A stretch of DNA of 63,450 bases, filler included, from Reclinomonas americana ATCC 50394 (lineage: Eukaryota), in NCBI GenBank assembly GCA_048213135.1. It is 10 parts of 10 records of this genome, joined end to end, with 100 filler letters (N's around TTAATTAATTAA, not from the genome) between each part and the next. Parts side by side here need not be neighbours in the genome. Positions count along the whole stretch, not along the records: positions 39,230 to 58,262 come from AFZH01016816.1; 9 more parts are not named here. The stretch is one strand, 5' to 3'. The translations under genes were made by a program, and so were the position numbers. The notes below the pieces were generated by a model. The model did not search any database and was not told where the DNA came from. It worked only from the letters and a program-made list of their open reading frames with translations. The stretch's first letter is position 1; each line of letters begins with the position of its first letter. This document shows positions 1 to 63,450 of the stretch, piece by piece.

Positions 1-3000
1 ATGAGACGTAAGTTTTGCCGCTTGTCTTGCAGGGCTCGCAAGCGCGTAGCATTGCTTATCGGCAACTCTTGCGATGGCGAGGGAACGCATGGGTTACTGA
101 GAAACCCACCGCGTGATGTGGGTACGTCGATGCATACTTCGGCACGCAACTCCCGTTCACCGTCGGGTTTGGTCTCTCACACACGCACACGCAGACGAGT
201 TGCAACCAGTGCTTGCGGACTACGGCTTCCACGTTTGCTCGCATGTCGATGTGGTTGGCGATCGCATGCACTCCGTAGTTAAGAGATTTGTGGGCGAGTT
301 CGTGAATGAGGAGTGCGAATGTGTGCTGTTTTTTTTCTCTGGTCACGGTCTGGCGATTGAACGAGACTTGTTGCTCCTCCCAAGTGATGCCAACCGCATT
401 TTTGAATCACGCGTGGTGAGGTTGGCGGTCGCTTTGTTGTTTCGCGGAAGTTGTATTTACAACTGCAATCGCAGACAAATGGCGACAAATCACTGGCGCT
501 TCTCCGGTTCTGCATGCCGGAACTGTGCAACAATCGATCAGAGCATACGGTTGTGATTATGTTGGCGAACTGTTGCCGCTCAACTAACAGGTGCGTGTGG
601 TTTGATACATTGAAGCGTTTATTGTCGCAATTGTGTTAAATCACGCGGTCATTGTGTGCTCGGTCACAGCGCTGTTCGCTCGGTAACCAGAGACGATGTG
701 GAGAAGAATGTATTTGCTGGTTTAGCATGCTACCACGGTTGCGGAGCGCACGAGGGTGGTGAGTTATTGGCCTACTTTGCTTATCTGCAGGTTGCTGACT
801 TCTCGTCTCAGACTTGCAAGCATCTGCGTCTCCCTACGTGCGGGCGCTGGTTCACGCCATCAAGGGGCACGGGCATTTATCACTGCCTGCATGGCACGAC
901 AAAGTTAATTGTCGGCTGAGAGAAATGCAACAACAGTCTTTCGAACAAGACTCCGAATATCATCATGACCTAAAAGAAACCGAACTGGTTGAGTTTCGAC
1001 TGTGTTTGCATCCCGGTAAGCAGTTCGACCTCCTACGATCATGAGTGGAGTATTGTTGTATGTGCCGAAATCGCCGCTGCTCTTTTGCCTGTGAAGTATT
1101 GAGTTGTGTGCCTTTGGTGTTACTGCCGTTCGTAGTTCCCTATGTATTATTAGCGACGGTTACGACTGCTTACTGTACTGTGCCGCAGGCGTACACGCGC
1201 TGTGTCTTCGGGAGCTCTCGTTCTACCAACACGACGAGAGTGTGCGCAAGGACATGCAGATGTATGTGCCACTGCTGTGCTCCCGTGATCGTGACGTCTC
1301 GTCGAGGGACAAGATGACGGATCTGTTGTCGGAGGTGGATGCTTTCCTCTCCGAAACCAACACCACGCAACGTGTGTTGGTGCTGCTTGGCAACAGTGGA
1401 GCCGGCAAGACCACCACCATGTCGGTGCTGGCCGAGCGAGCCTGGCGACAGTGGCAAACGAGAGAGAGTCGTCGAGTGCCTGTGCGGGTGCCTCTCGGTG
1501 CGCTGCGCAATGCGGATGAGCGACTGTTGGAGGAGGCATTAGAACGCCTGTCGCACAAGTTACGATTGAAGCCGGATGTGCGAAAATTGAAGGAGGAGCC
1601 TCTCCTGTTGTTGCTTGACGGGTACGACGAGTTGTACCGTGGTGGAAATCTGTTTGTGACGAACCAGCTGGATGTGTGTCGCGATGTGAAGGTGATAATC
1701 ACTTGTCGCAGCGATTACGCACTGACGGCACTGGGTGGAGTGACGCAGTATCGACGGTACTTTGCACCGGTGGATGCAAGCGGTCAGTTGTGCATGCAGC
1801 AGCTGATGGAGCGGCACATTGCACCATTCAATATGGAGCAGATCGAGGAGTACTTCAAGCGACTGGTGCAAGTGGGTGGTGACGATGATGATGATGGTGA
1901 AGTGCGATGGTCAACTTCCGAGCAGTACATTCGTGCATTGAAGAGTGTGCATGGACTGGATGCATTGGTGTCGAATCCATTCCTACTGGCAGTGGTGGCT
2001 CGTGTGTTGCCTCAGTTGGTGGCGAGTGGTGCACAGCGACCTACTCGGCGTGATGTATTTGATCGATTTATTCGACAGTGGATTGTGAGGGAGCAGGAGA
2101 GGCAGACGCGTCTCGGTGCAGAGCGTGTGCCGAGTGAGGAGACGTGTCTGGCATTCTGTGAGGGACTTGCTCGCTTGATGCATGAGAGGAATGTGGTGCG
2201 TGTGACTGTGACGGAGAGTCGGTCAGGGGAGGAGGATGACTTTGGCGGTGCGCCACTCGCCTTGCGACGAGTGGAGGAGGGACCGTTTGACAAGTTCCTC
2301 GGCCCCAAGAACCAGCATGTGCGAGCGTGCTGTCCGATTGTGCGACGGTATGCGACGACGCAGTGGGGATATGTGCACCTGTCGTTGCTGGAGCACTGTG
2401 TGGCACGTCATGTGTTTGCATGGGAGACGTGGGATGAGGAGAGGAGGTTGACGATGCAAGATGTGCAGCAGCATGTGCTGGCAGTGCGACTGCTAAATGA
2501 TCGACCATCGCTGGTGGAGCAGATGGCCGAGGTGGTGCGACGGTCTCCTGCACTGCCAGCGAGACTGTGGGAGGTGATTTATATGTCACGGGAGATGGAT
2601 GAGGTGCGATTGGTGACGGCAGCCGCCAATGCAGCAACGGTGTTGTGTGTGGCGCAAGTGTCGTTCAGTGGGCGAGACCTGTCGGGAGTGCGAGTGAGGG
2701 GTGCGGATTTGAGGGATGCGGTGATGCACAGGACGGATTGGAGGGGAGCAGATTTGCGAGGGGTGAATATGTGCATGGCGTATGCGAGGGAGGCGGATTT
2801 CAGGGATGCGGATGTGACGGATGTGAAGTGGCCGAGGAGACCGATGGTGGGGCACACTGATCAGGTGAGATCTGTTGCTGTTACTCCCGACAGTCAGTAC
2901 ATTGTGAGTGGCAGTGGGGACAAGACTTTGCGAGTGTGGTCGGTGGCAAGTGGCGAGGGGGTGCGTCGACTGGAAGGCCATACGATAGCGGTGTCTGCAG

Positions 3001-9448: not shown

Positions 9449-9548
9449 NNNNNNNNNNNNNNNNNNNNNNNNNNNNNNNNNNNNNNNNNNNNTTAATTAA
9501 TTAANNNNNNNNNNNNNNNNNNNNNNNNNNNNNNNNNNNNNNNNNNNN
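9449..9548. other. Artificial assembly gap spacer (also at 13552, 16820, 18631, 35337, 39130, 58263, 60022 and 62154; 100 nt each)
   Basis: Identical N44-TTAATTAATTAA-N44 block with stop codons in all six frames. Confidence 0.97.
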
Positions 9549-24500: not shown

Positions 24501-26404
24501 TCCCAGAGCCGTCAACGCGTAATCGTCACGACAGGTGATAATCACTTTCAAGTCGCGACACACATCCAGCTGGTTCTTGACAAACAGATTCACACCACGA
24601 TACAACTCGTCGTACCCGTCAAGCAACAACAACAGTGGTTCCTCCTTCAATCGTCGCACATCCGACTCGCTGAATCCTAACTCAGGTGACAGTCGCTCCA
24701 ATGCCTCCTCCAACAGTCGCTCATCCGCATTGCGCAGGGCACCAAGAGGCACACGCACAGGCACACGCCGACTCTCTCTCGTCTGCCACTGTCGCCATGC
24801 TCTCTCGGACAGCACCGACATGGTGGTGGTCTTGCCGGCACCACTGTTGCCGAACAGCACCAGCACACGCTGGGTGGTATTGGCGTCGGCGAGGAATGCA
24901 TCCACCTCCGCCATCAGATCCGTCATCTTGTCTCTCGATGAGACGTCACGATCACGCAAGCACAGCAGCGGCACATACATCTGCATGTCCTTGTGCATAC
25001 TCTCATCGTGCTGGTAGAACGAGAGCTCACGCACAGCCAGTCGGTGCAGTCGCTCCTCGAATGTGCTGATAATGTGCTGGACGTGACGCGCCTCGCGGAT
25101 ACGAGCAGCGGATCGAGATCGCTCATCATCGGTCAAATGCAGCCGTGAGAGGATGGAGAGGAAGACACCACCGTCACCAAGGTACTCCTGCACAGAGGCA
25201 TCCGTCACCATGAGGTCCTTGTGCGCCAAACCCTTTCTCACATCATTCAGCTCCTCTACCGCATTCCGTTCATCAACATCGTCAATCAGCAGCAGCTTGC
25301 GACCGTCACCAAGAACGAGGCCACCATACAGCATGATGGAAGTGAGTGCCGTCGTATCGAAACCGTCACACGGGGGATCGGACGAGGGGTCGGCGTCGAA
25401 TGTAGCACGCCAGGCCAACATCACCGGCTGCTTCTCCTCAAACAACTTGACTCGCCCAGGATGAAGCGGGGCATGTCGATCACGCCACGCCTTCACAGCC
25501 GCTGCGTCCATGCCAGCGGGCGCGAAACCCGCAACCCATGCCCGCACATCAAAGTCGGCATGATCGCGACTGAACTGGGCCAGTGCGCGTTGACAGCGCA
25601 GACGCACGGCCTCCTCCACCACCTCGAAAGCCATGGTGATGCGATTGAAATTGATCATGCTGTCCACCAGCACACAGAAGCATCAATCAGAATAACAAGC
25701 GGAGGAGAGAGAGAGAGAGAGAGATGAGGGCAAGATAAATCAAACCGAGCCACAAACTCCGAGTTGCTGTGTGACGACAAGAGTGAGATGCATGTTGGGC
25801 GAAGAGAGATGGATCCAACACATCACCACACCAGAGAGGGAAGGGTAGAGTAAGCTCGGCTGTGACCACATGAAGAGCACGAAGAGCACAACGGCAACAC
25901 ATGTGCAACAGACACAAGGAGAGAGTGTGTGTGCGAGAGAGATGAAGATGTACACCAACGCACAAGTACACACGCACACTGGACAGACCTTCCACTCTCG
26001 CTTCCACTCTCACTCCCACTCCCTCCACTTGACTGCAGCGCCACGCGAAGGTTCACACGGACGACGAGATGGGTGGATGCGTTGATGCCGAGTCCGATGA
26101 GCGGCACGCCACCGGCAAACTCAATGTTGAAAGCACTCGGCTTCTCCACTCCCACAATCTCCATCGCCTCATCTCCACTCTTCTCACGCAGCAAGCGAGT
26201 GGCCTCGCGCAGCAAGTACGTGAGAGTGGACATCGGTGTCATTGCCTCCACCACCACCGACAGCGATGAATCATGCGCTGCGCTCACATTCAGAGAGAAC
26301 TGTGATACACACAAGGGCAGTGAGAGCACAGAAAGAGGAAACACAGAAGGAGGAGTGAGAGCACAAAGAGATGGAGGGAAGGGAGAGAATGCACTCACCG
26401 ACAT
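21516..26404 (-). CDS. NLR2: Ubl-HEPN-NACHT-pentapeptide-WD40x13 with a divergent WD40 array
   Basis: Exons 26404-26399 (MS), 26299-25989 (Ubl-like + SGSESG linker) and 25659-21516. Motifs FDTTALTSIMLY, VRKGLAH, GNSGAGKTT and LLDGYDE; the reading frame is intact. Confidence 0.88.
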
Positions 26405-31600: not shown

Positions 31601-33447
31601 CGTCACCCACTTGCACCAGTCGCTCAAAGTACTCCTCAATCTGCTCCTTGTTGAATGGTGCAATGTGTCGCTCCATCAGCTGCTGCATGCACAGCTGTCC
31701 GCGTGCATCCACCGGTGCAAAGTACCGTCGATACTGTGTCACACCACCCAATGCCGTCAGTGCGTAATCGCCGCGACAGGTGATAATCACTTTCAAGTCG
31801 CGACACACATCCAGCTGATTCTTGACAAATAGATTCACACCGCGGTACAACTCGTCGTACCCGTCAAGCAACAACAGCAGTGGCTCCTCCTTCAACCGTC
31901 GCACATCTGTCTCACTGAATCCCAATTCAGGTGACAGTCGCTCCAGCGCCTCCTCCAACAATCGCTCATCGGCATTGCGCAGAGCACCAAGAGGCACACG
32001 CACAGGCACTCGTCTGCTTTCTCTCGTCTGCCACTGTTGCCATGCTCGCTCGGCCAGTACTGACATGGTGATGGTCTTGCCGGCTCCACTGTTGCCAAAC
32101 AGCACCAGGACACGCTGGGTGGTGTTGGTGTCGGAGAGGAAGGCATCCACCTCCGTCAACAGATCAGTCATCTTGTCACTCGATGAGACGTCACGATCAC
32201 GTGTGCACATCAGTGGCACATACATCTGCATGTCCTTGCGCACACTCTCATCATGCTGGTAAAACGGGAGCTCACGCACAGCCAGTCGATGCAGTCGCTC
32301 CTCAAACGTGTCCACAATGTGCCGAGCGTGAAGTGCCTCACAGATACGAGCAGAGAATCGAGCTTGCTCCTCAGCCGTCAACTGCAGTCGGGAGAGGATG
32401 GAGAGGAAGACACCACTGTCACCAAGGTACTCCTGCACAGTGACGTCTGACAGTACGAGGTCCTTGTGCGCCAACGCCTTTCTCACATCGTTGAGATCCT
32501 CCACCGCCTGTCGTTCATCAGTATCGGCAATCAGCAGCAGCTTGCGACCGTCATCCTCGACAAAGCCACCATACAGCATGATGGTGTGCAGAGCCGTCGT
32601 ATCAAAACCGTCACACGGAGGGTCGGACGAGGGATCGGCATCGAATGCAACACGCCAGGATAACATCACCGGCTGCTTCTCCTCGAACAACTTGACTCGA
32701 GAAGGGTGGAGTGGAGCATGTCGCTCACGCCATGCCTTCACAGCCACCGCATTCATGCCAGCAGGCGTGAAACTCGGCACCCAGGCCCGCACATCAAAGT
32801 CGGGATGATCGCGACTGAACTGCGCCAGTGCGCGTTGACAGCGCAGACGCACGGCCTCCTCCACCACCTCAAAGGCCATGTTGATGCGCTGCGAGTTGAT
32901 CATGCTGCCCGTGCACACACATAACACAGTCAGCACAGACTCACTCCGAGTGAAATAACAAGGAAAGGGAGAGAGAGAGTACGGTGCCGAAACAAACCGA
33001 GTCGCTCGCTCCGAGTTGCTGTGGGAAGACATGAGAGTGAGATGCATGTTTTGCACAGGGGATGACACATCCAGCACACATACCTTCCACTCCCACTCCC
33101 ACTCACTCCACTCGACTGCAGCGCCACGACAAGTGTCAGACGGACGACAAGATGCGTGGATGAGTTGATTCCTAGAATGCGCAGCGGAATGCCACCACCC
33201 TCCTCGATATCGAATGCCATCGGCTTCTCCACTCCCACAATCTCCATCTCCCCATCTCCACTCTTCTCACGCAGCAAGCGTGTGGCCTCGCGCAGCAGGT
33301 CCGCAAGAGTGGACATCGCCGACATGCCCCGCCACCACCAGCGATGAATCATGCGCCGCACTTACATTCACAGAGAACTGCGAAAGGAGGACAGTGAGCA
33401 CACACACAGAAGGAGGGAAGAGTCAGCACCCAAACACACACCGACAT
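28611..33447 (-). CDS. NLR3: (Ubl, frameshifted)-HEPN-NACHT-pentapeptide-WD40x14
   Basis: Exons 33447-33442, 33377-33084 and 32904-28611. A net 5-nt deletion near 33330-33345 shifts the Ubl exon; re-initiation at ATG 33325 (MSAMSTLADLL) or ATG 32903 would be in frame. VRKALAH, GNSGAGKTIT and LLDGYDE are intact. Confidence 0.82.
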
Positions 33448-35255: not shown

Positions 35256-38200
35256 TGCTCTATCTGTTCGTGTGTGCGTGTGTGTGTGTGTGTGTGAGAG
35301 AGAGAGGGAGATTCAGGCGACGAGCAAGCCGTCGCCNNNNNNNNNNNNNNNNNNNNNNNNNNNNNNNNNNNNNNNNNNNNTTAATTAATTAANNNNNNNN
35401 NNNNNNNNNNNNNNNNNNNNNNNNNNNNNNNNNNNNTTTCCCTTCGTGTCTGCCGCTCTCTCTCTCTCTCTCGCTCTCTGTCTCTCTCTCTCGCTCTCTG
35501 TCTCTCTCTCTCTCACTCTCTGTCTCTCTCGCTCTCTCTCTCTCTCTCTCTTTCTCTCATTGTCTCTCTCTCTCTCGCTCTCTGTCGCTCTCGGTCTCTC
35601 TCTCTCTCTCTCGCTCTCTGTCGCTCTCTCTCTCTCTCTCGCTCTCTGTCTCACTCTGTCTCTCTGTGTCTCTGTGTCTCTGTGCCTCTCTCTGTCTGTC
35701 ACCTTTCCCCTCACTCTTGCTCTCTCTATTCTTGAGCGTGTGTGCGTGATTCAGGTGATTCATCATTCTCTCTGGGTACCTCGACATCTCTTGCCTGTTC
35801 CACTTTCCTCCCCTTGGTTTCTCTTTACGCTTTTGTCGTCTCTGTTGCTGAATCACTTGTTCTTTTCTCCCAGCGGGAACAGGAGTCGTCGAGCGGCACC
35901 GCGTCCGGATACTCTGCATCGCGAGGATCGTCGCGCAGTGGCTCGCGAGGTGGACCACGTGAAGTTGAGTCTGGAAATGGGCAAGGGAGAGAAAAATTGT
36001 TTCCTCCTCTCCCTCACACCCTCTCTCTGTGTCTGTTGTTCTGCTGGCCTGTTTGTCGATCTCCTCGTCTTTGTTATCTCCATCTCTTCGCTGTTCCCTC
36101 ATTCTCCATGTCGCTACCTTTTGCTGGGGACGCATTCACTTCCCGCCATTCTATCCTCGCTCCCTCTCTCACACACGCGCTTCCTTGTTTGCAGCCAGTT
36201 GTCCTCCACTTCTAATACCTTCTGAATCTCTCTCGCTCCCATCCCTTTCCCAATCCCTCGACACCTCAAGTCCTTCTCCCTGTCTGTTCAACTCTCGTTG
36301 TTCGTCTTTTCTGTGTCCTCTCTCATTATTCTTTCCTCTTCGTTTCCTATTTTCATCCCGCCTGTCACATTTTGTGTTGTCTCTGCTCTGTCGTTTTCGT
36401 CTCTTTCGTCTCCTTTCTTCATTCCTTCCTCTCTTCCTCTCACTTTCTGTTTTGTCTCTGCTCTGTCTGTATCCTAGCTTTCGTCTCTCCATCCATTCCG
36501 TCTCTCCCCCCTCCCCCTTCTCTTCACCTCACTTTCCCTCTCCTTCCCCTTCTGGTAGCAGGACTCCGTGGCCAGCCTCTCCTCCATGGCCTCCGCCACC
36601 CGCTCTGGCAGCTCCTCCGGCACCCGTCTCACCACCCCACCCGCCAGCAACGCCACCCTCACAACAACCACCACCACCACCACCGGCGGCGGCTCCTCCT
36701 CATCCTCCTCTTTCGGCCCCCCACCCCTGACCCCCTCACAGTACGGCTCCTCGGCGACCACGATGACGGCCAGCACGCCCCTCATTGACCAGCCGCCCTC
36801 GTCGTCCTACTTGCCATCCCCGGCCACCACGGTGGCGACCGGCAGCGACCTGACCACGCCCGTGGAACTCCGCGTCCAGCGTGCTCGCGTCGCCGCCCTG
36901 GAGGAGGAGATTCACCAGGCGCTGACGCAGCTGCAGGAGCGCGAGGATGCCGTGAACGAGCAGAAGCAGCTGATTCGCGAGCTGCAGGAGGAGGTCACGA
37001 AGCACGCCAAGGCCGCGCAGGCGCTGGAGGGGAAGATCGAGAAGGAGAGGCAGAAGCGGGTGGATGCGGAGAGGGAGGTGGAGGATGTGAGGGCGGCGGT
37101 GAGTGGGAGATGGGGAAAGGAAAAGGGAAAGGGTGGGGAAGGGAAAGGGTGGAGATGGGGAAAGGAAAAGGGGAAGGGTGGGGAAGGGGAAGGGTGGGGA
37201 AGGGGAGGCTTGGAGGATGGTCTCTAATTCTCGTGGAGATGAACTCTGTCGGCACCATTTCCTCCTGTCTCTTGATGTCATTTCTCGAATTTTAGTCGCA
37301 TTTGGCTCTTGTCTCCCTCTCATGGTTCCTCTTTCTCTCTGTCAATGTCTCTCTCTTTCTCGCTGTTTCTCACTTTCTCTCTCTCTTTGTTTTCTCTCTT
37401 TTCGTCTCTCGCTCAAGCTCTCTGCTCTCTCATTTATTCTTTCTGTCTTGATAACACTGTCTGTTTTCACTCTCCACCTTTCTGTCTCGCTTCTGTGTTC
37501 CTTTGCGATGCCTTTCCTTTTCCCTCGACGTCACTGTCTTTCTCTTCTCTCATCCTGTTCCTGTGTGTCTTTCTCTGTTGCCGTCTCTCTCTCCATCTCC
37601 CTCTGTTATTTTCTCCCTTTTCGTTTCTCGCTTTATTTCTTTCTGTCTTGTAACACTGTCTGTTTCCTCTCTCCATCTCTCTGTCTTTCTTTCTGTCTTG
37701 CTGTCACTGTCTTTCTTTCTCTCTTACTGTCACTGTTTCTCTCTCTCCCTCTCTCTCTATATGTCTCGATTCTTTCGTGACTTCTTTCTCTCATTGCCTG
37801 TCTTTCTCTTCCTCCCTTTCGATCTCTCTGTTCTCTCTCGATGTTACTGTCTTTCTCTCTCTCTTTCCATCCCGCTGTCTCTCTCTGTCTTTGTTTTGTG
37901 TTCCTCGCGATGCCTTTCTTTTCTCCATGATTTCACTTGTATCTGTCTCTCGATGTCACTGTCTTTCATTTTCCCTCTCTGTCTCTCTCTCTCTCTCTCA
38001 GAGTTTCTGTGTTGCCCTCTCTATTCTCTTTCGAATTCTCTCCGTGTCCTTCTCCTTCCCAATGTTATTCACTATGCTTTCTCGATGCTCCTCCATCTCC
38101 ATCACGATGCCTCTCATTCTCTCGATATCACTGTCTTTTATCTCTCTCGATGACTGACACTGTCTTTCATATTTTCTCTGCGCGTTTCTGCTTCATGATC

Positions 38201-39040: not shown

Positions 39041-40044
39041 GCGGGTGAAGTGAAGGTACACAAGCTTTGCAGCTCGAACTTGACAGGTTTTTTCTGTGCA
39101 CCGGGCAACTCGCTCTCTCTCTCTCTCTCNNNNNNNNNNNNNNNNNNNNNNNNNNNNNNNNNNNNNNNNNNNNTTAATTAATTAANNNNNNNNNNNNNNN
39201 NNNNNNNNNNNNNNNNNNNNNNNNNNNNNGAGGGAGGGAGAGGGTATGTGCGTGAAGAGTGTGTGTGAGAGAGAGAGAGACAGAGTCACGAAGAGTGTGA
39301 GTGAGTGAGAGTGTTACGACGAATGGACAAGAGAGAACGAGCGCTGCACTTGCAGCAACGCTCATGCGCACCCACCAAGGGCCACGTCTGCTGCTTGTCT
39401 GGCTTCTCTCGTTCTCGCCACGCTGGTGACCGAGGTGCTGATGTCAAGGGTTGAACCAAACTGCTGCTCCAGTCTCCGGAGCACGCTGCTTGCTGTCAGC
39501 AGCCGCTGCTGTTCACCTCGTGACGAGAGTAAACAAACTCCTGCCTTCTTCAAATGCGCATGCTCTACATGGTGACACTGCGGAGGAGGCAGTCATTTCT
39601 CCTTTGTCACTGGCATCCGCTATCGACACTGCGAAGGGGGCGCCCTGAGTGTGGCAAGCGCAGGAGCTTGCACGCACAGCCAACAACTGGTTCGCAGAGA
39701 CACTCGCAAGTGAGAAGGACGCAATGTGCGCTGTGTGTGCGCGTCTCACACTCCGCAGCATGCGGTGCACGCCTGTGAGAGTCTGTCTGCATGAGTGAGG
39801 CGGTGGGCGAGTGTGGTGGTGGGGTGCGGGGCACTTTGGTGGTGTGTGAGCGACATGGCTGGTATGCACAAGTGAGGGCGGGAAAAAAGTGGCCAAAGTG
39901 AAGCGGATGTTGCAGGAAGCCGCAAAACGCCACAAAGTCCTTCACTGACGCCGGGTTTGGCGCAACCCGCAGGCTGTCAGCCGCCGGGTTGTAACCCGGC
40001 GAACCGGACACTAGCAGGTCAAGGTTGACCAAAAACCACCTGCG

Positions 40045-40622: not shown

Positions 40623-41738
40623 ATGACCTCCTTCCCCAAACTCCACGGCCACAAACTCCACGGCCACATCCGTCCCGTCACCTCCGTCCTCATCACCCCC
40701 GACGGCCTCCACATCATCAGCTCCAGCACCTCCGACATCTCCATCCGCATCTGGTCACTGGCCACCGGCGAACCACTGCACCACCTCACTCACCCCTCCA
40801 TGCACGACCTTGTCTGCATCGCCGTCACCCCCGACAGTCGACACATTGTCAGCGCAGGCTACCAGACACTGCGAGTGTGGTCAGTGGCCACGGGAGAGCA
40901 TCTGCACGAGGCACACATGGGACGCATGGGAGTACAATGTATGGTGGTGGCTCCCGACGGACAGCATGTGGTGCTGGGAGGACTGGGATCGGCGCATGTG
41001 TGGTCACTGCAGCAGGTGGCCACGACAGTGGAGCGCGTGGCGAGTTACACGGGAGTGGCTCACCGCGTGGTCATCACTCCCGACAGCAAGTACGTGCTCA
41101 CTGGCGGCTTGGACTGCCCATCGGTGACTGCGTGGCAGCTGCGCAGTGGGTGCGTGGTGCGATATTACGCGGCGCATAGTGGCGTGTCGTGCTTGACGGT
41201 GACGCCCGACGGGAGGCACGTGATTGTCGGGTGTCGCGACAAGACGATCCGGGTGTGCGAGTTGGAGAGTGGGCGCGAGGTGCGACGGTTGGAGAAGCAC
41301 GCGCAGATGCAGCTGCTGTTGAGTGTGGTGGTGGCGCCCAGTGGTCTGCATGTGGTTGGCGGCAGTGATGATGGGGTCGTGTCGGTGTGGTCGCTGGCCA
41401 GCGGCAAGGAGCTGCGGCGGTGGAAGGGACTCGGCTACTTTCACCCGGCGTCGGTAGCGGTCGCGCCCGGCGGCCAGTACGTGGTGTGCGCGGGGCGACA
41501 GGAGTCGGTGGAGGTGTTGTCGACGCCTCTCGCGTTGGCGCAAGGGGAGTTGCGGTGGGCGACCGCGGCGGTGCGGGCGGTGCGGGAGGAAGTAGACAAG
41601 GAGAAGGAGGAGATGGAGGAGGAGGTGAAGGAGGAGGAGGAGAGGCGGTGCTTGGTGGAGATTGTGTTAAGGTGTTTTATCGCGGAAGAGGCGCAGTTGG
41701 TGGCGCACAAGTGTGTGAGGGAGCAGATGATGTTGTAG
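40623..41738 (+). CDS. WD40-only partner A (about 7 WD repeats + acidic helical C-terminal tail), intronless, 371 aa
   Basis: MTSFPKLHGHKLHGHIRPVTSVLITPDG..., seven TPDG/WS-type repeats, tail ELRWATAAVRAV..EEERRCLVEIVLRCFIAEEAQLVAHKCVREQMML*. Confidence 0.85.
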   Translation: MTSFPKLHGHKLHGHIRPVTSVLITPDGLHIISSSTSDISIRIWSLATGEPLHHLTHPSMHDLVCIAVTPDSRHIVSAGYQTLRVWSVATGEHLHEAHMGRMGVQCMVVAPDGQHVVLGGLGSAHVWSLQQVATTVERVASYTGVAHRVVITPDSKYVLTGGLDCPSVTAWQLRSGCVVRYYAAHSGVSCLTVTPDGRHVIVGCRDKTIRVCELESGREVRRLEKHAQMQLLLSVVVAPSGLHVVGGSDDGVVSVWSLASGKELRRWKGLGYFHPASVAVAPGGQYVVCAGRQESVEVLSTPLALAQGELRWATAAVRAVREEVDKEKEEMEEEVKEEEERRCLVEIVLRCFIAEEAQLVAHKCVREQMML

Positions 41739-42285: not shown

Positions 42286-45200
42286 ATGTCGGTGTGTTTC
42301 TTTGTGCATTCTCTCTTCCCTCATCCTCTGCGCGTGTGCTCACTTTGTTTGTGCGACAGTTCTCTGTGAGCGTGAGTGCGGCGCACGATTCGTCGCTCTC
42401 GGTGGTGGTGGAGGGCATGTCGGCCATATCCACTCTCGCGGATTTGCTGCGCGAGGCCACACGCTTGTTGCGTGAGAAGAGTGGAGATGGTGAGATGGAG
42501 ATTGTGGGAGTGGAGAAGCCAGTGCCATTCGACTTGGAAGACGTGGGAGAGCTGAAGTTGAAATCACTGGGCATCAACTCATCCACTCACCTCATCGTCC
42601 GTCTGACACTTGGCGTGGCGGTGCAGGCGAGTGGAGCAAGTGGGAGTGGGAGTGGAAGGTGTGTGTCTCTGTGTATGTGAATCATTTCTCCGCAACATGC
42701 AGCTCATTCTCTTCGCTCAGCAACTCGGAGCGAGAGACTCGGTTTATGTTTGTTGCTTTTGTCATCCTGCTCTCTCCCTTTGCTTGTTCTTCATTTTGGG
42801 TGAGTCTGTGCTGACCGGCCGCGGTTGTGTGCGCGCAGCATGGTCAACTCGCATCGGATCAACATGGCCTTCGAGGTGGTGGAGGAGGCCGTGCGTCTGC
42901 GCTGTCCACGCGCACTGGCGCAGTTCAGTCGCGATCATCCCGACTTTGATGTACGGGCGTGGGTTCCGGCATTCACGCCTGCTGGCATGGATGCGACGGC
43001 AGTGAAGGCGTGGCGTGAGCGACATGCTCCACTCCACCCCTCTCGAGTCAAGTTGTTCGGGGAGAAACATCCGTTGGTGTTGGCATGGCGTGTTGCATTC
43101 GACGTTGATCCATCGTCCCACCCTCCGTGTGACGGTTTCGACACGACAGCACTCGCCTCCATCATGATGTATGGTGGCTTTGTCGAGGATGACGGTCGCA
43201 AGCTGTTGCTGATCGACGATGCTGATGAACGCAAGGCTGTGGAGGAGCTGAATGATGTGAGAAAGGCGTTGGCGCACAAGGACCTCGTGCTGACGGATGC
43301 CGCTGTGCAGCAGTACCTTGGTGACGGTGGTGTCTTCTTCTCCATCCTCTCTCGACTGCAGTTGACGGTCGATGAGCGAGCTCGATTCACTGCTCGAATC
43401 TGTGATGCGCGTCATGTCCAGCACATCATCAGCACGTTCGAGGAGCGACTGCATCGACTGGCTGTGCGTGAGCTCTCGTTCTACCAGCACGACGAGAGCG
43501 TGCGCAAAGACATGCAGATGTACGTACCACTTCTGTGCTCTCGTGAGCGTGACATCTCGTCGAGTGACAAGATGACGAATCTGCTGACGGAGGTGGATGC
43601 TTTCCTCTCCGACACCAGCACCACCCATCGTGTGCTGGTGCTGTTTGGCAACAGTGGTGCCGGCAAGACCACTACCATGTCGATGCTGGCTGAGCGAGCA
43701 TGGCGACAGTGGCAAACGAGAGAAAGCAGACGAGTGCCTGTGCGTGTGCCTCTTGGTGCTCTGCGCAATGCCGATGAGCGGTTGTTGGAGGAGGCACTGG
43801 AACGACTGTCACCCGAGTTGGGATTGGAGTCGGATGTGCGACGATTGAGAGAGGAACCTCTGCTGTTCTTGCTTGACGGGTACGACGAGCTGTACCGTGG
43901 TGTGAATCTGTTTGTCATGAACCAGCTGGATGTGTGTCGTGATGTTAAGGTGATTATCACCTGTCGAGGCGATTACGCACTGACGGCGATGGGTGGAGTG
44001 ACACAGTATCGACGGTATTTTGCGCCGGTGGATGCACGAGGGCAGCTGTGCATGCAGCAGCTGATGGAGCGACACATTGCACCGTTCAGCAATGAGCAGA
44101 TTGAGGAGTACTTTGAGCGATTGGTGCGAGTGGGTGGTGATAATGGTGACGGTGAAGTGCGATGGTCGACTGCCGAGGAGTACATTCGTGCACTGAACAG
44201 CGTTCGTGGACTGGATGCACTGGTGTCGAATCCGTTCCTGCTGACAGTGGTGGCTCGTGTGTTGCCGCAATTGGTGGCGAGTGGTGTGCAGCGACCGACT
44301 CGACGTGATGTATTTGACCGATTCATTCGACAGTGGATTGTGAGGGAGCAGGAGAGGCAGACGCGTCTCGGTGCTGAGCGTTTGCCGAGTGAGGAGACGT
44401 GTCTCTCGTTCTGCGAGGGACTGGCACGGTTGATGCATGCGAGGAATGTGGTTCGTGTGGCTGTGACGGAGAGTCGGTCAAGTGAGGATGACTTTGGTGG
44501 TGCGCCGCTTGCCTTGCGAATAGTGGATGAGGGACCTTTTGACAAGTTCCTTGGCCAAAAGAACCGACACGTGCGAGTGTGCTGTCCGATTGTGCGACGG
44601 TATGGGACGACGCAGTGGGGATTCGTGCATCTGTCGTTGTTGGAGCACTGTGTGGCACGGCATGTATTTGCGTGGGAGACATGGGATGAGGAGAGGAGGT
44701 TGACGGTGCAGGATGTGCAGCAGCATGTGTTGGCTGTGCGACTGCTGAACGACAGACCATCGTTGGTGGAGCAGATGGCGGAGGTGGTGCGACGATCTCC
44801 CACATTGCAAGCGAGACTGTGGGAGGTGATTTCGTTGTCACGGGAGGAGGACGAGGAGCGATTGGTGACCGCGGCAGCGAATGCAGCCACGGTGCTATGT
44901 GTGGCCCAAGTGTCGTTCAGTGGGCGAGATCTGTCGGGTGTGCGAGTGAGGGGTGCGGATTTGAGGGATGCGGTGATGCACCGGACGGTGTGGAGGGGGG
45001 CGGATTTGCGAGGGGTGAATGTGTGCATGGCGTATGCGAGGGAGGCGGATTTCAGAAAGGCGGATGTGACGGGTGTGAAGTGGCCGAGGAAACCGATGGT
45101 GGGGCACGCGAGAGAGGTGACGTGTGTTGCTTTCACACCCGATGGTCAGTACGTTGTGAGTGGCAGTTCGGACGAGACTGTACGAGTGTGGTCGGTGGCA

Positions 45201-47135
45201 AGTGGCGCGGAGGTGCGCCGACTGGAAGGCCACACGAGTGCGGTATCTGCAGTGGCAGTGACACCCGATGGCCAGCACATTGTGAGCGGCGGGGGAGACA
45301 AGACTGTACGGGTGTGGTCGGTGGCAAGTGGCGAGGAGGTGCGCCGACTGGCAGGCCACACGGATTGGGTGCGGGCAGTGGCAGTTACACCCGACGGTCA
45401 GTACATCGTGAGTGGCAGTGATGACGAGACTGTGCGGGTGTGGTCACTGGCAAGTGGCGAGGAGGTGCGCCGACTGGAAGGCCACACGGAGTGGGTGCGT
45501 GCAGTGGCATTTACACCCGATGGCCAGCACATTGTGAGTGGCAGTAGGGACAAGACTGTACGGGTGTGGTCGGTGGCAAGTGGAGAGGAGGTGCGCCGAC
45601 TGGAAGGTCACACGGATGAAATCCGTGCATTGGCATTTACACCCGCTGGCCAGCACATTGTGAGTGGCAGTTGGGACAAGACTGTGCGAGTGTGGTCAAT
45701 GGCGAGCGGAGATGAAGTGCGGCGGTTGGAGGGACACACTGGTGCAGTGCTCTCTGTCGCCGTCACTCCTGATGGGCAGCACGTCGTCAGCGGGATTGGC
45801 GACTCGACTGCGCGAGTTTGGTCACTGGCGAGTGGCGAAGAGATGCGACGGTTGGAGGGACACACTGGTGATCTGCGTTCAATCAAGATTACTCCTGATG
45901 GTCAGTACGTCGTGAGTGGGGGTGAAGATATGACGGGTCGAATGTGGCCTGTGATTGGTGATGAAGATGTACGACGGTTGGGTGGGCACACCGGAGTGGT
46001 GCATTCAATTGTGCTCACTCACGACTGTCAGCATGTTGTGAGTGCCGGTGATGACGGCACGGTGAGGATGTGGTCTGTGTCAACAGGCGAGGAATTGTGG
46101 AAGGTGGCAGGACAGTTCTCCGCATTTGCTGTTTCTCCAGATGGTCAATTCGCGGTGAGTGGGGGTGAGAATGGGTCTATTCTGATGTGGTCTTTGGATC
46201 GTGGAGAAGAAGTGCGACGATTTGAGGGGCACAATGATCGTGTAACGTGTGTTGCCGTCAGTCCCGGTGGTCAGTACATTGTCAGCGGATGTTGGGACAA
46301 GACTGTACGTGTGTGGTTACTGGCGGGTGGAGATGAGTTGCGGCAGCTGCGGGGACACACTGAATGGGTGAGCTCTGTCGTCGTCACCCCCGATAGTCAG
46401 CACATTGTGAGCGGAGGTGGAGATAATACAGTTCGAGTGTGGTTACTGGCGAGTGGAGAAGAAGTGAGGCGGCTGCGGGGACACATTTTGTGGGTGAACT
46501 GTGTCGTCGTCACTCCTGATGGTCAACACATCGTCAGCGGGAGTTATGACAAGACAGTGCGAGTGTGGTCACTGGCCAGCGGCGAGGAGATGCACCGACT
46601 GGAGGGACACACTGCATGGGTGAACTCCGTCGTCGTCACTCCTAATGGTCAGCACATCGTAAGTGGGAGCTTTGACAAGACAGTGCGAGTGTGGTCACTG
46701 ACGAGTGGAGAGGAACTGCTTCGGCTGGAGAGACACTCTGGTGGGGTGCGGTGTGTCGTCATCACTCCCGATGGCCAGTACATCGTGAGTGGCAGTGGTC
46801 ACGGAGAAGTACGGGTGTGGTCTCTGGCGGATGGAGAGGAAGTGCCTCTTGATAAGCAGGCGGACCTCGTGGACCATTCGGCGGATCATGTGGCTTACCT
46901 TCGCTGCTTGGCGTTCGGTTCTGCGTACACTGCCCGTGTGTTTGGTAGGTCGATCCAACTGATGCGTCGAAACACTCACGGGCTTGTGGAACGTATTCTC
47001 GGCACCGTCTTGTCAGATTTCACTAACGCGCTTGGTGCTTTGAGTGGCGTCGGCCTTGAAGAGGTGACCGACGGGGTGGACGGGGGCGACGGAGAGGATG
47101 AGGAGGACGAAAGAGTCTCAGTTCGATACCGATGA
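42286..47135 (+). CDS. NLR4: Ubl-HEPN-NACHT-pentapeptide-WD40x14, intact
   Basis: Exons 42286-42291 (MS), 42360-42658 and 42839-47135; introns are GT-AG with a ctgac branch point at about 42811. HEPN RKALAH at 43260-43277; Walker A and B are intact. Confidence 0.9.
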
Positions 47136-48253
47136 TTGGAGCTCTGCTGGCGATGAAGACGACGACGCGAGCTTAGAGGAGATCATCATGCAGCTGTTCG
47201 CGGTTTGGAGTGAACTTCTCAATACTTGTTGGCATCAGTAATCCCCAGATGCACTGCAGTTGCCTTGCTTTGATGTGCAAAGTGGGCGCGGAGAAAGAGG
47301 TGCATTTGGGGAGGAATGAGGAGGAAAGGAGAGGAGAGAGAGAGAGAGAGAATACCCTGCTGCCTGCTGTTTTTGAATAGAGATGACAGGTGGCTGCGCC
47401 TGTCACTGGCTGCGCATGCGATGTGAAGTGCAACGGCGTCGATCGAGCTCGAGACGATTGTAGCAGCTCAACAGGAACGTCTGCATTACCGCTTCAAAGA
47501 CTTGCAATGTTTCTCTCGATACCATGGCCACTCACAGAAGCCCCGCACCGCACACAGGACATGTGGCCTCATTTGGCGACCTGCTTGGAGGATGAAGGCG
47601 ACGGTCAGCGACATATGCAACAGGGTGCAGTTGGCGACCTGCTCCTGATCAGTGACCAGCTTTTCAAGTGCGGTGTTGGTGGAATCCAGAGGACTGGAGA
47701 ATGCAGGCACTGTTGGTTGACTGAAGGGCGTCGACAGGGACATGTCAGTTGGTCACCAGCTCGACGACCAGTTCGTGCCACGGGCAGATTGGTCGCCGGC
47801 TTGTCGACCAATCGGGCAAGTAGCCATCGACCAAGACTTGTAATGCACGCAGACATCGCCGGCTACCACAGCTGAGCTCCTCAGAGACCGACACTCGCTG
47901 CGCAGTGGAAAAGAGAATCCGAAGTCACTACTTTTAAATTTGCAATTCTCTCATTGTGTTCCTCTTTCTCGCAGCGCTCTGGATCATTCCAACACCTCTC
48001 CTCATGTATTACAGCGACAAGCAGTACACCTGCGTGGCCACCACCGACACTGTCGGCGAAGTCGTTTCCCGCACAGGACATTTTTCTTCTCTCAGCTCGC
48101 CGGCACTCTCCTCTCTCTTTGCCCACTCTTCTCTCTCCCTTTGCTCTGCCTTCTCTCCTTCCATTGCTCACTCCTTCCCTCCTTCCCTCTCTCCTCTCTC
48201 TTCTCTCCCTTCCCCTTCACCCCCCTTCCCCTTCCCCCCACTTCCCCCCACCA

Positions 48254-49372
48254 ATGACCTCCTTCCCCAAACTCCACGGCCGCAAACTCCACGGCCACAC
48301 CCTCCCCGTCACCTCCGCCCTCATCACCCCCGACGGCCTCCACATCATCAGCTGCAGCGAGGACGACTCCATCCGCATCTGGTCACTGGCCACTGGCGAA
48401 CCACTGCGCCGACTCACTCACCCCTCCATGCACGACATTGCCTATGTCGCCGTCACCCCCGACAGTCAACGCATTATCATCACAGACTACTGCATGCTGC
48501 GAGTGTGGTCGCTGGCCACGGGGGAGCAGCTGAGCGAGACATACCGGCGACTGTTCTTTGCCGAGTGCATGACGATTTCTCCGTGCGGACTGTACGTGGT
48601 GATTGGAGGGGCGGCGTCGGCGCAAGTGTGGTCGCTGGAGAGTCTGTCGCTGGTGGCGACGCACTACCCGGAGGCGGAGAGTGTGGCCATCACTCCCGAC
48701 AGTGAGCTCGTGCTCACGGGCAGCACGCACCACAACAGAGTGGATCTGTGGTCGCTGCGCAGTGGACGCCACGTACGACAGTTCGCCGTGTATGTTGCTG
48801 TGGCGTGCTTGGCGGTGACGCCCGACGGTCGCTACTTTATTGCGGGGTGCTTTGACGCAACGATTTGTGTGTTTGACTTGGAGAGTGGGCGCGAGGTGCG
48901 ACTGTTGGAGAAGCACGCACACGTGCAATTCTTGATGACGGTGGCGGTGGCGCCCAGCGGTCCGCATGTGGTTGGCGGCAGCAGCGACGGTGTGGTGTCG
49001 GTGTGGTCGCTGGCCACTGGCAAGGAGCTGCGGCGGTGGAAATCGCTGGACCGTTTTCAGCCGACGTCGGTGGCGGTCGCGCCCGGCGGCCAGTACGTGG
49101 TGTGCGCGGGGCGGCAGAATACGGTGCAGGTGTTGTCGACGCCGCTAGCGTTGGCGCAGAGGGAGCTGTGGCGGGCGACCGCGGCCGTGCGGGCGGTGCA
49201 GGAGGTGTTGAGGAGGCGTGAGAGGAGAAGGGAGACGTCGATGGAGGGTGGGGAGGAGGAGGTGAAGGGGGAGGAGAGGCGGTGTTTGGTGGAGATTGTG
49301 TTGAGGTGCTTTATTGCGGAGGAGGCGCAGTTGGTGATGCACAAGTGTGTGAGGGAGGAGATGATGTTGTAG
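48254..49372 (+). CDS. WD40-only partner B, intronless, 372 aa
   Basis: Paralog of 40623-41738 (MTSFPKLHGRKLHGHTLPV...RCLVEIVLRCFIAEEAQLVMHKCVREEMML*). Confidence 0.85.
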   Translation: MTSFPKLHGRKLHGHTLPVTSALITPDGLHIISCSEDDSIRIWSLATGEPLRRLTHPSMHDIAYVAVTPDSQRIIITDYCMLRVWSLATGEQLSETYRRLFFAECMTISPCGLYVVIGGAASAQVWSLESLSLVATHYPEAESVAITPDSELVLTGSTHHNRVDLWSLRSGRHVRQFAVYVAVACLAVTPDGRYFIAGCFDATICVFDLESGREVRLLEKHAHVQFLMTVAVAPSGPHVVGGSSDGVVSVWSLATGKELRRWKSLDRFQPTSVAVAPGGQYVVCAGRQNTVQVLSTPLALAQRELWRATAAVRAVQEVLRRRERRRETSMEGGEEEVKGEERRCLVEIVLRCFIAEEAQLVMHKCVREEMML

Positions 49373-63200: not shown

Positions 63201-63309
63201 CGGAGCAGAAGCGCATGGCCTTGGTCGACAGCACGGCGTCGCGCTCGGCACCCTCCACGAATTGTACCGGTGTTTCGCTGACCACTTGCATGGTGTTCAT
63301 GCGGTTCTG
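60255..63309 (-). CDS. ERCC2: TFIIH helicase subunit XPD (RAD3), C-terminal part; 5' end outside the window
   Basis: Exons encode [115 protein letters not shown] and [18 protein letters not shown]. Confidence 0.96.
61180..61575. repeat. ~85-bp degenerate tandem repeat in an XPD intron
   Basis: ggacgcagaa..agag..aaaggacgaagtc..aggacagacgagt..ccagctccac.tcacatgcagacaacaga, about 4-5 copies. Confidence 0.8.
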
Positions 63310-63450
63310 CGGGGGGAAGGCGGAAGGGGGATGAGAGGGGAAGGGAGGGTGAAGAGAGCTAAGGGGGAGAGCGAAAGGGAGAGGAGCAACGGGAGACAAA
63401 CGAAGGGGGAAGAGCGAAGGGGAAGAGCGGAGGGGGAGAGCGAAAGGGGA

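What the first reader, a model, noticed from the sequence alone, without database searches (positions are those of the whole stretch)
42839..43460. HEPN-type RNase effector (FDTTAL..IM.Y ... RK(A/G)LAH) conserved in four paralogs
Seen: a ~200-aa helical domain ahead of NACHT with an invariant R-x4-H (43260-43277) and an upstream FDTTAL motif in NLR2-5. Known: DZIP3/hRUL138-like and Swt1-like HEPN domains carry a D(I/T)TLL-like motif and a catalytic RxxxxH, and dimerise to cut RNA. The second position is K rather than the usual N/D/H. Inference: a ligand-activated endoribonuclease, analogous to RNase L or bacterial abortive-infection effectors.
Basis: partly seen in the sequence, partly recalled or inferred. 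Interest (0 to 1): 0.75.

Follow-up and report, generated by a model that had tools for sequence, protein, structure and literature searches.

The report
Orphan N-terminal domain of NLR-like genes
A real, conserved ~207-residue domain sits at the front of four tandem NACHT-WD40 immune-receptor-like genes where a cell-killing effector is expected, but whether it is a HEPN-type RNA-cutting enzyme remains only a weak lead.

Summary
A ~207-aa domain (42840-43460, +) opens a 1431-aa ORF with NACHT, pentapeptide repeats and 14 WD40 repeats. It recurs at 80-83% identity in three other copies. The domain is under purifying selection (dN/dS 0.25-0.32).

The HEPN reading is only a lead. Pfam gives a ~26-residue sub-threshold match to HEPN_Swt1 over the RKALAH helix (12.7-16.4 bits, cut-off 27.5). 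It never extends and never reaches FDTTAL. A language-model search also puts HEPN_Swt1 and HEPN_DZIP3 first, at 0.78-0.79, below the tool's 0.9 mark. R-x4-H alone is chance level: 69% of shuffles carry one, and the domain holds a second. No homologue turned up among 1.84 billion representatives, the PDB or 185,579 prokaryotic genomes. AlphaFold2 failed (pLDDT 35 and 53), so the fold test is open.

New context: paralog NLR1 carries a caspase-like Peptidase_C14 domain in the same slot (E=3.6e-8), swapped at an exon boundary. That supports an effector role.

HEPN RNase is my leading guess (~0.45). A novel non-HEPN effector is nearly as likely.

The parts
42840..43460 (+). N-terminal orphan domain (aa 1-207) of NLR4; candidate effector, possible divergent HEPN
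   Evidence: Open frame. 4-copy conservation. dN/dS 0.25-0.32. Its end coincides with the breakpoints of NLR1 and NLR5 homology at 43460/43467.
43137..43154 (+). FDTTAL motif (aa 100-105), start of a predicted helix 102-111
   Evidence: Invariant in 4 of 4 copies. Predicted helix in both low-confidence models. Not covered by any Pfam match.
43260..43277 (+). RKALAH (R141-x4-H146), candidate HEPN catalytic motif at the end of predicted helix 128-147
   Evidence: R and H invariant in 4 of 4 copies. Lies inside the only Pfam match, HEPN_Swt1 aa 129-155 against profile 74-100/115. The motif type is chance level.
43461..43628 (+). Linker (aa 208-263) shared by all five NLR copies that keep it, including NLR1
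   Evidence: tblastn aa 204-247 matches NLR1 1191-1322. megablast homology with NLR1 begins at 43467=1209.
43629..44120 (+). NACHT NTPase domain with Walker A GNSGAGKTT
   Evidence: Pfam PF05729 E=7.9e-10, 39.2 bits, cut-off 26.7.
44916..45077 (+). Pentapeptide repeats between the NOD module and the WD40 repeats
   Evidence: Pfam PF00805 E=7.9e-7, 29 bits, cut-off 20.2.
45096..46841 (+). WD40 repeat array (14 stretches), presumed sensor
   Evidence: Pfam PF00400 E=2e-154, 14 stretches.
32283..32903 (-). N-domain copy in NLR3 (RKALAH at 32466-32483)
   Evidence: 83% identity. Weakest HEPN_Swt1 signal: 0 hits on the whole domain, 3 of 7 sub-windows.
25038..25658 (-). N-domain copy in NLR2 (RKGLAH at 25221-25238)
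   Evidence: 81% identity. HEPN_Swt1 E=0.12 on the whole domain, 7 of 7 sub-windows.
50344..50964 (+). N-domain copy in NLR5 (RKALAH at 50764-50781); the gene lacks ~390 nt (the equivalent of 43461-43850, including Walker A) and changes frame
   Evidence: 80% identity. Deletion junction at 50964. N-domain in frame 1, downstream ORF 50877-54182 in frame 3.
1..1188 (+). NLR1 alternative N-terminal module: caspase-like Peptidase_C14 in several short exons, in the same slot as the orphan domain
   Evidence: Pfam PF00656 E=3.6e-8, 33.8 bits, cut-off 21.4 on 185-391. Weak C-terminal piece at 820-960, E=0.15. SGHG at 338-349, NCCRS at 568-582, a GT..AG intron at about 122-193, and an acceptor CAG at about 1188.

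Best explanation
The region encodes the N-terminal effector module of a tandemly duplicated family of NLR-like STAND proteins. The architecture is N-domain, linker, NACHT, pentapeptide repeats, then about 14 WD40 repeats.

Most likely mechanism, by analogy with other STAND/NLR proteins (inference):
1. The WD40 array senses a ligand.
2. The NACHT module oligomerises.
3. The N-terminal domains are brought together and become active, causing growth arrest or death of the cell.

The leading candidate for the activity is a very divergent HEPN-type, metal-independent endoribonuclease. [quoted passage not shown]

Shown here: the domain is real, conserved, selected and fused in one ORF to NACHT. The slot is interchangeable with a caspase-like domain.

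Inferred: the HEPN fold, RNase activity, activation by dimerisation, and the immune or death role.
For: Architecture and ORF continuity.

Four copies at 80-83% identity with the motifs intact.

Purifying selection: dN/dS is 0.25-0.32, against 0.12-0.16 for NACHT. Third-position substitution bias.

Effector slot: NLR1 has Peptidase_C14 there (E=3.6e-8), joined at an exon boundary about 20 nt before homology resumes. A eukprot relative of the NOD module (P0101) lists TIR_2 and SAM domains.

HEPN lead:
- HEPN_Swt1 is the only Pfam family hit in all four paralogs. It appears in 24 of 28 sub-windows, always at aa 128-155 against profile 73-100/115.
- The Atlas puts HEPN_Swt1 (0.79) and HEPN_DZIP3 (0.78) first. 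10 of the 10 best family-bearing hits fall in one family or clan for the whole domain, and 9 of 10 for aa 92-220.
- The motif sits at the end of predicted helix 128-147, followed by a break and helices 153-159 and 163-172. This fits the placement of Rx4-6H at the end of helix-3 with a kinked helix-4 (PMC3710099, passage).

Precedent:
- HEPN-NACHT fusions in the DZIP3 and CXorf38 families, and bacterial HEPN-STAND proteins (PMC3710099, Table 1 and passages).
- DZIP3-like HEPN is the commonest non-LRR partner of NACHT in 9 of 15 cnidarians (PMC8260672, passage).
- HEPN is listed among bacterial NACHT effectors (bioRxiv 10.1101/2022.07.19.500537, passage).
Against: - The Pfam match is far below the gathering score (12.7-16.4 bits against 27.5). 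It spans only about 26 residues and never extends over the other about 90 profile positions.
- Unrelated families reach the same E-values in the same scan.
- NLR3's whole domain gives no hit at all.
- Atlas scores of 0.78-0.79 are below 0.9. The tool states that shuffled proteins reach 0.8 a third of the time, and that all-ten agreement occurs for a third of shuffles.
- R-x4-H is expected by chance (69% of shuffles), and a second one exists at R61-H66.
- The residue after R is K, not the typical N/D/H (PMC3710099, section 6).
- FDTTAL lacks the E-x3-[KR] form of the upstream acidic motif.
- No HEPN chain appears in PDB sequence searches. The best hits are a glyoxalase at E=0.12-0.76 and caspase-3 at E=1.4.
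- The AlphaFold2 models are unusable (pLDDT 35.4 and 53.0). The better one puts a beta-hairpin at aa 113-127 and strands after aa 149.
- Foldseek finds 0 matches at E<=0.001.
Confidence: 0.45

Rival explanations
1. The domain is a lineage-specific, non-HEPN effector or adaptor with a new or unrecognised fold. It would signal or kill by another route after NACHT oligomerisation, for example membrane attack, recruitment of a partner, or another enzymatic activity. The HEPN_Swt1 signal would then be noise from one amphipathic helix that happens to carry R-x4-H.
For: - No homologue at E<=0.001 among 1.84 billion representatives. The single hit, P0002, is a repetitive bacterial protein scoring over 8 stretches.
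- Nothing among 1958 plus 673 word-sharing candidates.
- Nothing in the PDB, PADLOC, NCBIfam or PHROGs.
- Nothing in 185,579 prokaryotic genomes.
- None of the 120 listed relatives of the NOD module share the domain: best E=0.59 with filters off.
- The Pfam match is local and at noise level.
- The motif is chance level.
- The better AF2 model contains beta elements.
- Fungal NLR studies report many small unannotated N-terminal effector clusters (PMC9815663, passage).
Against: Two unrelated methods, a profile HMM and language-model features, independently rank the same rare family first. The position of the motif relative to the predicted helices fits HEPN.
Confidence: 0.37
2. The domain has a HEPN fold but is catalytically inactive. 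It would be an RNA-binding or regulatory module, as proposed for the HEPN dyad of Swt1 itself and for MtlR, and it would serve as sensor or adaptor rather than nuclease.
For: The position after R is K, not N/D/H, and no clear E-x3-[KR] acidic motif lies in the candidate helix-2 (PMC3710099, section 6). The Swt1 proper HEPN is described as probably inactive (PMC3710099, passage and Table 1).
Against: R141 and H146 are both retained in 4 of 4 copies. The slot holds a catalytic caspase-like domain with SGHG and a Cys motif in NLR1. The WD40 array already provides a sensor.
Confidence: 0.1
3. The domain is a degenerate caspase-like (Peptidase_C14) domain derived from the one in NLR1, with its catalytic residues lost.
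For: - NLR1 has C14 in the same slot.
- A PDB profile search gives a weak hit to caspase-3 p20 (7jl7_A, E=1.4). It aligns YLGDGGVF with the SHG region.
- A 14-residue similarity between TFEERLHRLAVREL and IFESRVVRLAVALL lies near the module boundary.
Against: - hhalign of the 4-copy alignment against the NLR1 C14 piece gives probability 0.78% and E=0.072 over only 14 columns. BLASTP gives E=0.39.
- Pfam shows no Peptidase_C14 signal on aa 1-267 even at E<=10.
- The caspase-3 hit is at noise level.
- The catalytic His equivalent would be Asp, and no Cys strand is present.
Confidence: 0.05

Closest known systems
DZIP3/hRUL138-like and CXorf38 (Swt1-clade) HEPN domains fused to NACHT in animals (cnidarians, molluscs, cephalochordates)
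   Same: An N-terminal domain of about 100-200 aa directly ahead of a NACHT NTPase in lineage-specifically expanded, tandemly duplicated genes. It carries an R-x4-H motif at the end of a helix. The predicted role is a ligand-activated RNase in immunity or cell death (PMC3710099, passages; PMC8260672, passage). Atlas neighbours of the window domain carry exactly these Pfam families.
   Different: The window domain does not reach either Pfam model's threshold. HEPN_DZIP3 is never hit, and HEPN_Swt1 scores 12.7-16.4 bits against 27.5. It has K after R. The C-terminal sensor is pentapeptide plus WD40 rather than LRR, ankyrin or Death. The host is an unidentified intron-bearing eukaryote whose NOD module is closest to the Mortierellomycotina/Mycoavidus family, not to animal NLRs.
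NACHT-pentapeptide-WD40 proteins of Mortierellomycotina fungi and their Mycoavidus/Glomeribacter endosymbionts
   Same: The NOD-pentapeptide-WD40 body is homologous. 168 proteins score E<=0.001, the best at 2.0e-55, with 27-31% identity over 90-100% of aa 225-745.
   Different: Those relatives carry long N-terminal regions (median about 601 aa before the NOD match). Sources name them Arm-like repeat domains, and the literature describes them as helical solenoids (PMC9815663, passage). None of the 120 listed shares the window's N-domain.
RNase L / Ire1 KEN domains and bacterial HEPN-STAND or HEPN abortive-infection effectors
   Same: The proposed logic is the same: a sensor and oligomerisation module brings HEPN domains together, and the R/H active site then cuts RNA. 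This rests on established knowledge summarised in PMC3710099, section 6. HEPN is listed among bacterial NACHT effectors.
   Different: No sequence or structural similarity to these families was detected here. Activity is untested.
Caspase-like (Peptidase_C14)-NACHT-WD40 STAND proteins
   Same: NLR1 in this same array has that architecture, so it shares everything downstream of the linker with NLR2-5.
   Different: The N-domain of NLR2-5 shows no significant similarity to C14.

Membership tests
HEPN superfamily (Swt1-like / DZIP3-like) | Profile match at or above the curated Pfam gathering score (PF18731 cut-off 27.5 bits; PF18738) | tested here: not met
   HEPN_Swt1 scores 12.7-16.4 bits, E=0.012-0.16, over aa 128-155 only. 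HEPN_DZIP3 is never reported, even at E<=10.
HEPN superfamily (Swt1-like / DZIP3-like) | [quoted passage not shown] | tested here: inconclusive
   AlphaFold2 gave pLDDT 35.4 (aa 1-237) and 53.0 (aa 48-176). Foldseek against the PDB gave 0 matches at E<=0.001, with a best TM of 0.37. The predicted helices 78-89, 102-111, 128-147 and 153-172, with a hairpin at 113-127, are compatible but of low confidence.
HEPN superfamily (Swt1-like / DZIP3-like) | Rx4-6H motif at the end of helix-3 | tested here: met
   R141-K-A-L-A-H146 is invariant for R and H in 4 of 4 copies and lies at the C-terminal end of predicted helix 128-147 (placement rule from PMC3710099). The weight is low: 69% of shuffles carry an R-x4-H.
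HEPN superfamily (Swt1-like / DZIP3-like) | Polar N, D or H immediately after the conserved R | tested here: not met
   The residue is K142 in 4 of 4 copies. The rule comes from PMC3710099, section 6.
HEPN superfamily (Swt1-like / DZIP3-like) | Upstream conserved acidic residue in helix-2, typically E-x3-[KR] | tested here: inconclusive
   D101 of FDTTAL is invariant at the start of predicted helix 102-111 but has L at +4. [ED]-x3-[KR] occurs at 116, 117 and 127, outside that helix, and E116 is not conserved.
HEPN superfamily (Swt1-like / DZIP3-like) | R and H conserved in distant homologues | not testable with these tools
   No homologue outside the window was found. The four copies are 80-83% identical.
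HEPN superfamily (Swt1-like / DZIP3-like) | Metal-independent endoRNase activity that depends on R and H | not testable with these tools
   This needs a bench assay.
NLR-like STAND NTPase (NACHT clade) | NACHT domain with a Walker A P-loop, above the Pfam cut-off | tested here: met
   PF05729 E=7.9e-10, 39.2 bits against 26.7. GNSGAGKTT is present.
NLR-like STAND NTPase (NACHT clade) | C-terminal repeat sensor and variable N-terminal effector slot | tested here: met
   14 WD40 stretches and pentapeptide repeats. The N-terminal slot holds Peptidase_C14 in NLR1 and the orphan domain in NLR2-5.
Peptidase_C14 (caspase-like) | Profile match or similarity of the NLR2-5 N-domain to the NLR1 C14 domain | tested here: not met
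   No C14 hit on aa 1-267 at E<=10. hhalign probability 0.78% over 14 columns. BLASTP E=0.39.

The most novel reading that the evidence does not exclude
The domain is not HEPN but a previously unseen effector fold. It is restricted to an unsampled eukaryotic lineage, with no relative among 1.84 billion representative proteins. It has been plugged by exon-level swapping into the same NLR slot that a caspase-like protease occupies in the neighbouring paralog. That would make it a new cell-death or immune executioner family, with a ready-made natural comparison (C14 against X on near-identical receptor bodies).
Probability: 0.35. Interest if true: 0.6.

Novelty: new variant of a known kind. Interest (0 to 1): 0.4.

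Why it matters
NLR-like receptors with swappable N-terminal executioner domains are a shared theme of immunity and regulated cell death in animals, fungi, plants and bacteria.

This array places two different N-terminal modules on receptor bodies that are about 85% identical at the DNA level. One module is a recognisable caspase-like protease. The other is an orphan domain whose only leads point to HEPN RNases.

If the HEPN reading holds, it extends HEPN-NACHT receptors beyond animals and bacteria to another eukaryotic lineage and to a pentapeptide-WD40 sensor. It would also show a HEPN variant that current profiles miss. If it fails, the domain is a new effector family.

Either way the claim is modest. 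The architecture type is known, and the catalytic assignment is unproven.

Tried and rejected
- **Sequence homology for the N-domain.**
  - The word-indexed search of 5.8 billion proteins with region 1-240 scored none of 1958 candidates at E<=0.01. With the domain alone, none of 673 scored at E<=10.
  - The exhaustive HMMER search of 1.84 billion representatives with the 4-copy profile gave one hit, P0002 (E=2.2e-4). It is a 1000-aa repetitive bacterial protein matched in 8 stretches, and I rejected it as spurious.
  - PADLOC, NCBIfam and PHROGs gave nothing relevant.
  - PDB sequence searches gave only a glyoxalase (E=0.12-0.76) and caspase-3 (E=1.4).
  - In genome contigs, 39 pattern matches were found and none was confirmed.
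- **Structure.** AlphaFold2 on aa 1-237 gave pLDDT 35.4. On aa 48-176 it gave pLDDT 53.0, with the other four models at 33.7-38.9. Foldseek of the second model against the PDB gave 0 matches at E<=0.001. The top hit was the Alba-like Sso10b2 at E=0.023 and TM 0.32, which is meaningless for such a model.
- **Homodimer prediction.** ESMFold2 with two copies scored 0.01 and 0.00. The tool's verdict was 'no answer', and the controls were not run. This counts neither for nor against dimerisation.
- **N-termini of NOD relatives.** phmmer with filters off against the 120 listed relatives gave a best E of 0.59.
- **Caspase-origin idea.** Tested and not supported.
- **Antisense ORF 42762-43808.** Rejected as a shadow ORF. 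It is open in 1 of 4 copies.
- **HEPN alignments in print.** The supplement of PMC3710099 held here is only an HTML index. The HEPN family alignments were not available.
Full report
**What is there.** The finding lies at the 5' end of a 1431-codon ORF (42840-47135, +). Pfam places the following in it:
- a NACHT NTPase at 43629-44120 (E=7.9e-10, 39.2 bits against a cut-off of 26.7);
- pentapeptide repeats at 44916-45077 (E=7.9e-7);
- 14 WD40 stretches over about 45096-46841 (E=2e-154).

The window holds five such genes: 1254-4877 (+), 21516-25658 (-), 28611-32903 (-), 42840-47135 (+) and 50344-54182 (+). They are 82-86% identical at the DNA level over their bodies. The segment containing a 371/372-aa WD40-only gene plus an NLR is itself duplicated: 40468-47351 matches 48106-54159.

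The host is an intron-bearing eukaryote. An XPD-like helicase on the minus strand at 60.0-63.45 kb is split so that consecutive parts of the Helicase_C_2 profile (positions 53-107 and 107-152) lie about 0.9 kb apart. The window also carries many dinucleotide repeats and nine pairs of 44-N runs.

**Checking the observation.** The first 207 residues (42840-43460) recur at 83.0, 81.0 and 80.2% identity at 32903-32283 (-), 25658-25038 (-) and 50344-50964 (+). The alignment has no gaps.
- FDTTAL (aa 100-105; 43137-43154) is invariant.
- R141 and H146 (43260-43277) are invariant.
- The sense frame is open in 4 of 4 copies. The overlapping antisense ORF (42762-43808) is open in only 1 of 4.
- Differences pile up at third codon positions (42-55 against 14-24 at second positions).
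- Pairwise dN/dS of the domain is 0.25-0.32. NACHT gives 0.12-0.16 and the WD40 array 0.27-0.43.

So the domain is a real protein module under selection.

The motifs add little by themselves. At 80% identity, invariance is expected. An R-x4-H occurs in 69% of 20,000 composition-preserving shuffles of the domain, with a mean of 1.09 per shuffle. The domain has a second invariant R-x4-H at R61-H66.

One of the four copies sits in a decaying gene. NLR5 lacks the equivalent of 43461-43850, which includes Walker A, and its N-domain and body are in different frames.

**Is it HEPN?** For:
- Pfam's only recurrent hit is HEPN_Swt1 (PF18731). On whole domains it gives E=0.089, 0.043 and 0.12 in 3 of 4 paralogs, and nothing for NLR3.
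- In 28 sub-windows (7 per paralog) it appears in 24: 7, 7, 3 and 7 of 7. It always aligns aa 128-155 to profile positions 73-100 of 115.
- The ESM Atlas feature search, which is independent of HMMs, ranks a HEPN_Swt1 cluster first (0.79) and a DZIP3-like HEPN cluster second (0.78). 10 of the 10 best family-bearing hits fall in one family or clan. For aa 92-220 alone HEPN_Swt1 is again first (0.78), with 9 of 10.
- Both AlphaFold2 runs, though of low confidence, put RKALAH at the C-terminal end of a long helix (128-145 and 130-147). In the full-domain model it is followed by a break and helices 153-159 and 163-172. Upstream lie a helix 102-111 that starts at FDTTAL and a hairpin-like stretch at 113-127.
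- Anantharaman et al. [quoted passage not shown] The layout is therefore HEPN-compatible.

Against:
- The Pfam scores are 12.7-16.4 bits against a 27.5-bit cut-off.
- The match never grows beyond about 26 residues and never reaches FDTTAL.
- HEPN_DZIP3 is never reported.
- In the same scan unrelated families reach the same E-range: DUF4651 at 0.011-0.037, UBAP-1_UBA2 at 0.018-0.082, and IcmW at 0.042-0.11. These occur only in NLR5.
- The Atlas tool rates scores under 0.9 as leads only.
- The residue after R is K, not the typical N/D/H.
- FDTTAL does not have the E-x3-[KR] form.
- PDB sequence searches return no HEPN chain.
- The models (pLDDT 35.4 and 53.0) are too poor for fold assignment. 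Foldseek gives 0 matches at E<=0.001.

It cannot be run, because no homologue exists in any collection I could search.

**New context that bears on function.** NLR1 lacks the domain. Its homology to the others starts at 1209, which corresponds to 43467, seven bases past the end of the finding. Upstream of that point NLR1 encodes a caspase-like Peptidase_C14 domain:
- Pfam E=3.6e-8, 33.8 bits against a cut-off of 21.4, on 185-391, with a weak C-terminal piece at 820-960;
- ALLIGN at 49-66, the His motif SGHG at 338-349 and a Cys motif NCCRS at 568-582;
- these lie in alternating frames joined by at least one clean GT..AG intron (about 122-193);
- an acceptor CAG lies at about 1188, just before the shared linker.

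So near-identical receptor bodies carry either a recognisable death protease or the orphan domain, exchanged at an exon boundary. This is the strongest evidence that the orphan domain is an effector. It says nothing about which kind.

I tested whether the orphan domain is a decayed caspase domain. hhalign gives 0.78% probability over 14 columns, BLASTP gives E=0.39, and Pfam gives no C14 signal. It is not supported.

**Relatives of the receptor body.** Residues 225-745 find 168 proteins at E<=0.001 among 7998 scored candidates. The best is 2.0e-55, with 27-31% identity. Almost all named ones come from Mortierellomycotina fungi and from Mycoavidus or Glomeribacter endosymbionts, plus two eukprot entries. 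One of those, P0101, lists TIR_2 and SAM domains. Their N-terminal regions are long, with a median of about 601 aa before the NOD match, and are unrelated to the window's domain. The shared fungal-endosymbiont helical N-domain is described in PMC9815663 (passage).

**Mechanism.**
- Shown: one ORF joins the domain to NACHT-pentapeptide-WD40. The domain is under selection. The slot is modular.
- Inferred from the STAND/NLR paradigm: ligand sensing by WD40, then NACHT oligomerisation, then induced proximity of the N-domains.
- Inferred from the weak HEPN leads and from established HEPN biochemistry (PMC3710099, section 6): paired domains form an R/H site that cuts RNA without metal and shuts down the cell.

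I put the HEPN RNase reading at about 0.45, a non-HEPN novel effector at about 0.37, an inactive HEPN at about 0.10 and a degenerate caspase at about 0.05.

**Comparison and novelty.** HEPN-NACHT fusions are well documented:
- DZIP3 and CXorf38 families in animals, and bacterial HEPN-STAND proteins (PMC3710099);
- the commonest NACHT partner in many cnidarians (PMC8260672);
- pearl oyster and coral genome papers, which I saw only in the search listing;
- HEPN among bacterial NACHT effectors (bioRxiv 10.1101/2022.07.19.500537).

The concept is therefore known. My three literature searches surfaced no report of a HEPN-type domain on the pentapeptide-WD40 NACHT family, but that is a narrow search.

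I rate the finding a new variant of a known kind. It is a profile-invisible, lineage-restricted effector module on a known receptor type. Interest is moderate (0.40). It rises if the domain proves to be a new fold, or if the natural C14-against-X pair is exploited experimentally.

Noticed in passing
window 1-1188 (+), with NLR1 body 1189-4877: NLR1 carries a caspase-like Peptidase_C14 domain in place of the orphan N-domain. Pfam gives E=3.6e-8 on 185-391. The motif SGHG is at 338-349 and NCCRS at 568-582. The domain is encoded in several short exons, with a GT..AG intron at about 122-193 and an acceptor at about 1188. The effector swap between tandem paralogs falls at an exon boundary. The window starts inside or at the first exon.
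   Followed up: partly
window 50344-54182 (+): NLR5 looks degenerate. About 390 nt, equivalent to 43461-43850 (linker plus Walker A), are missing at junction 50964, and the N-domain and the body are in different frames. It could be a pseudogene or an assembly error.
   Followed up: partly
window 40623-41738 (+) and 48254-49372 (+): Two paralogous WD40-only genes of 371 and 372 aa (78.5% DNA identity) each sit about 1.1 kb upstream of an NLR (NLR4 and NLR5). They are duplicated together with it. They may be a partner, decoy or regulator.
   Followed up: no
window 60066-63450 (-): An XPD/Rad3-like helicase is split into exon-sized pieces. Helicase_C_2 profile positions 53-107 lie at 61621-61854 and positions 107-152 at 60070-60753, with HBB pieces at 62688-63450. 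This shows that the genome has spliceosomal introns, whereas the NLR2-4 ORFs are intronless.
   Followed up: partly
window 9449-9548, 13552-13651, 16820-16919, 18631-18730, 35337-35436, 39130-39229, 58263-58362, 60022-60121, 62154-62253: Nine pairs of 44-N runs, each pair separated by 12 bases (masked or gap stretches), lie mostly in repeat-rich intergenic or intronic DNA full of CT/GT/CA dinucleotide repeats.
   Followed up: no
window 32904-33047 (-): NLR3 has an upstream in-frame ATG that would add 48 residues ahead of the conserved MINSQRINMAFEVV start. The other copies start at the conserved Met, so the extension is probably 5' UTR.
   Followed up: no
window 42762-43808 (-): A 348-codon antisense ORF overlaps the N-domain. 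It is open only in the NLR4 copy and has 1-2 stops in the other three, so it is a shadow ORF and not a gene.
   Followed up: yes
window 46842-47135 (+) and equivalents: After the WD40 array, the NLR1, NLR3 and NLR4 copies share a tail of about 90 aa. It contains YLRC(M/L)AF(G/D)SAYTARV followed by an acidic GD/EE-rich end. The NLR2 tail differs in its last part. dN/dS for the NLR3-NLR4 pair reaches 0.86.
   Followed up: no
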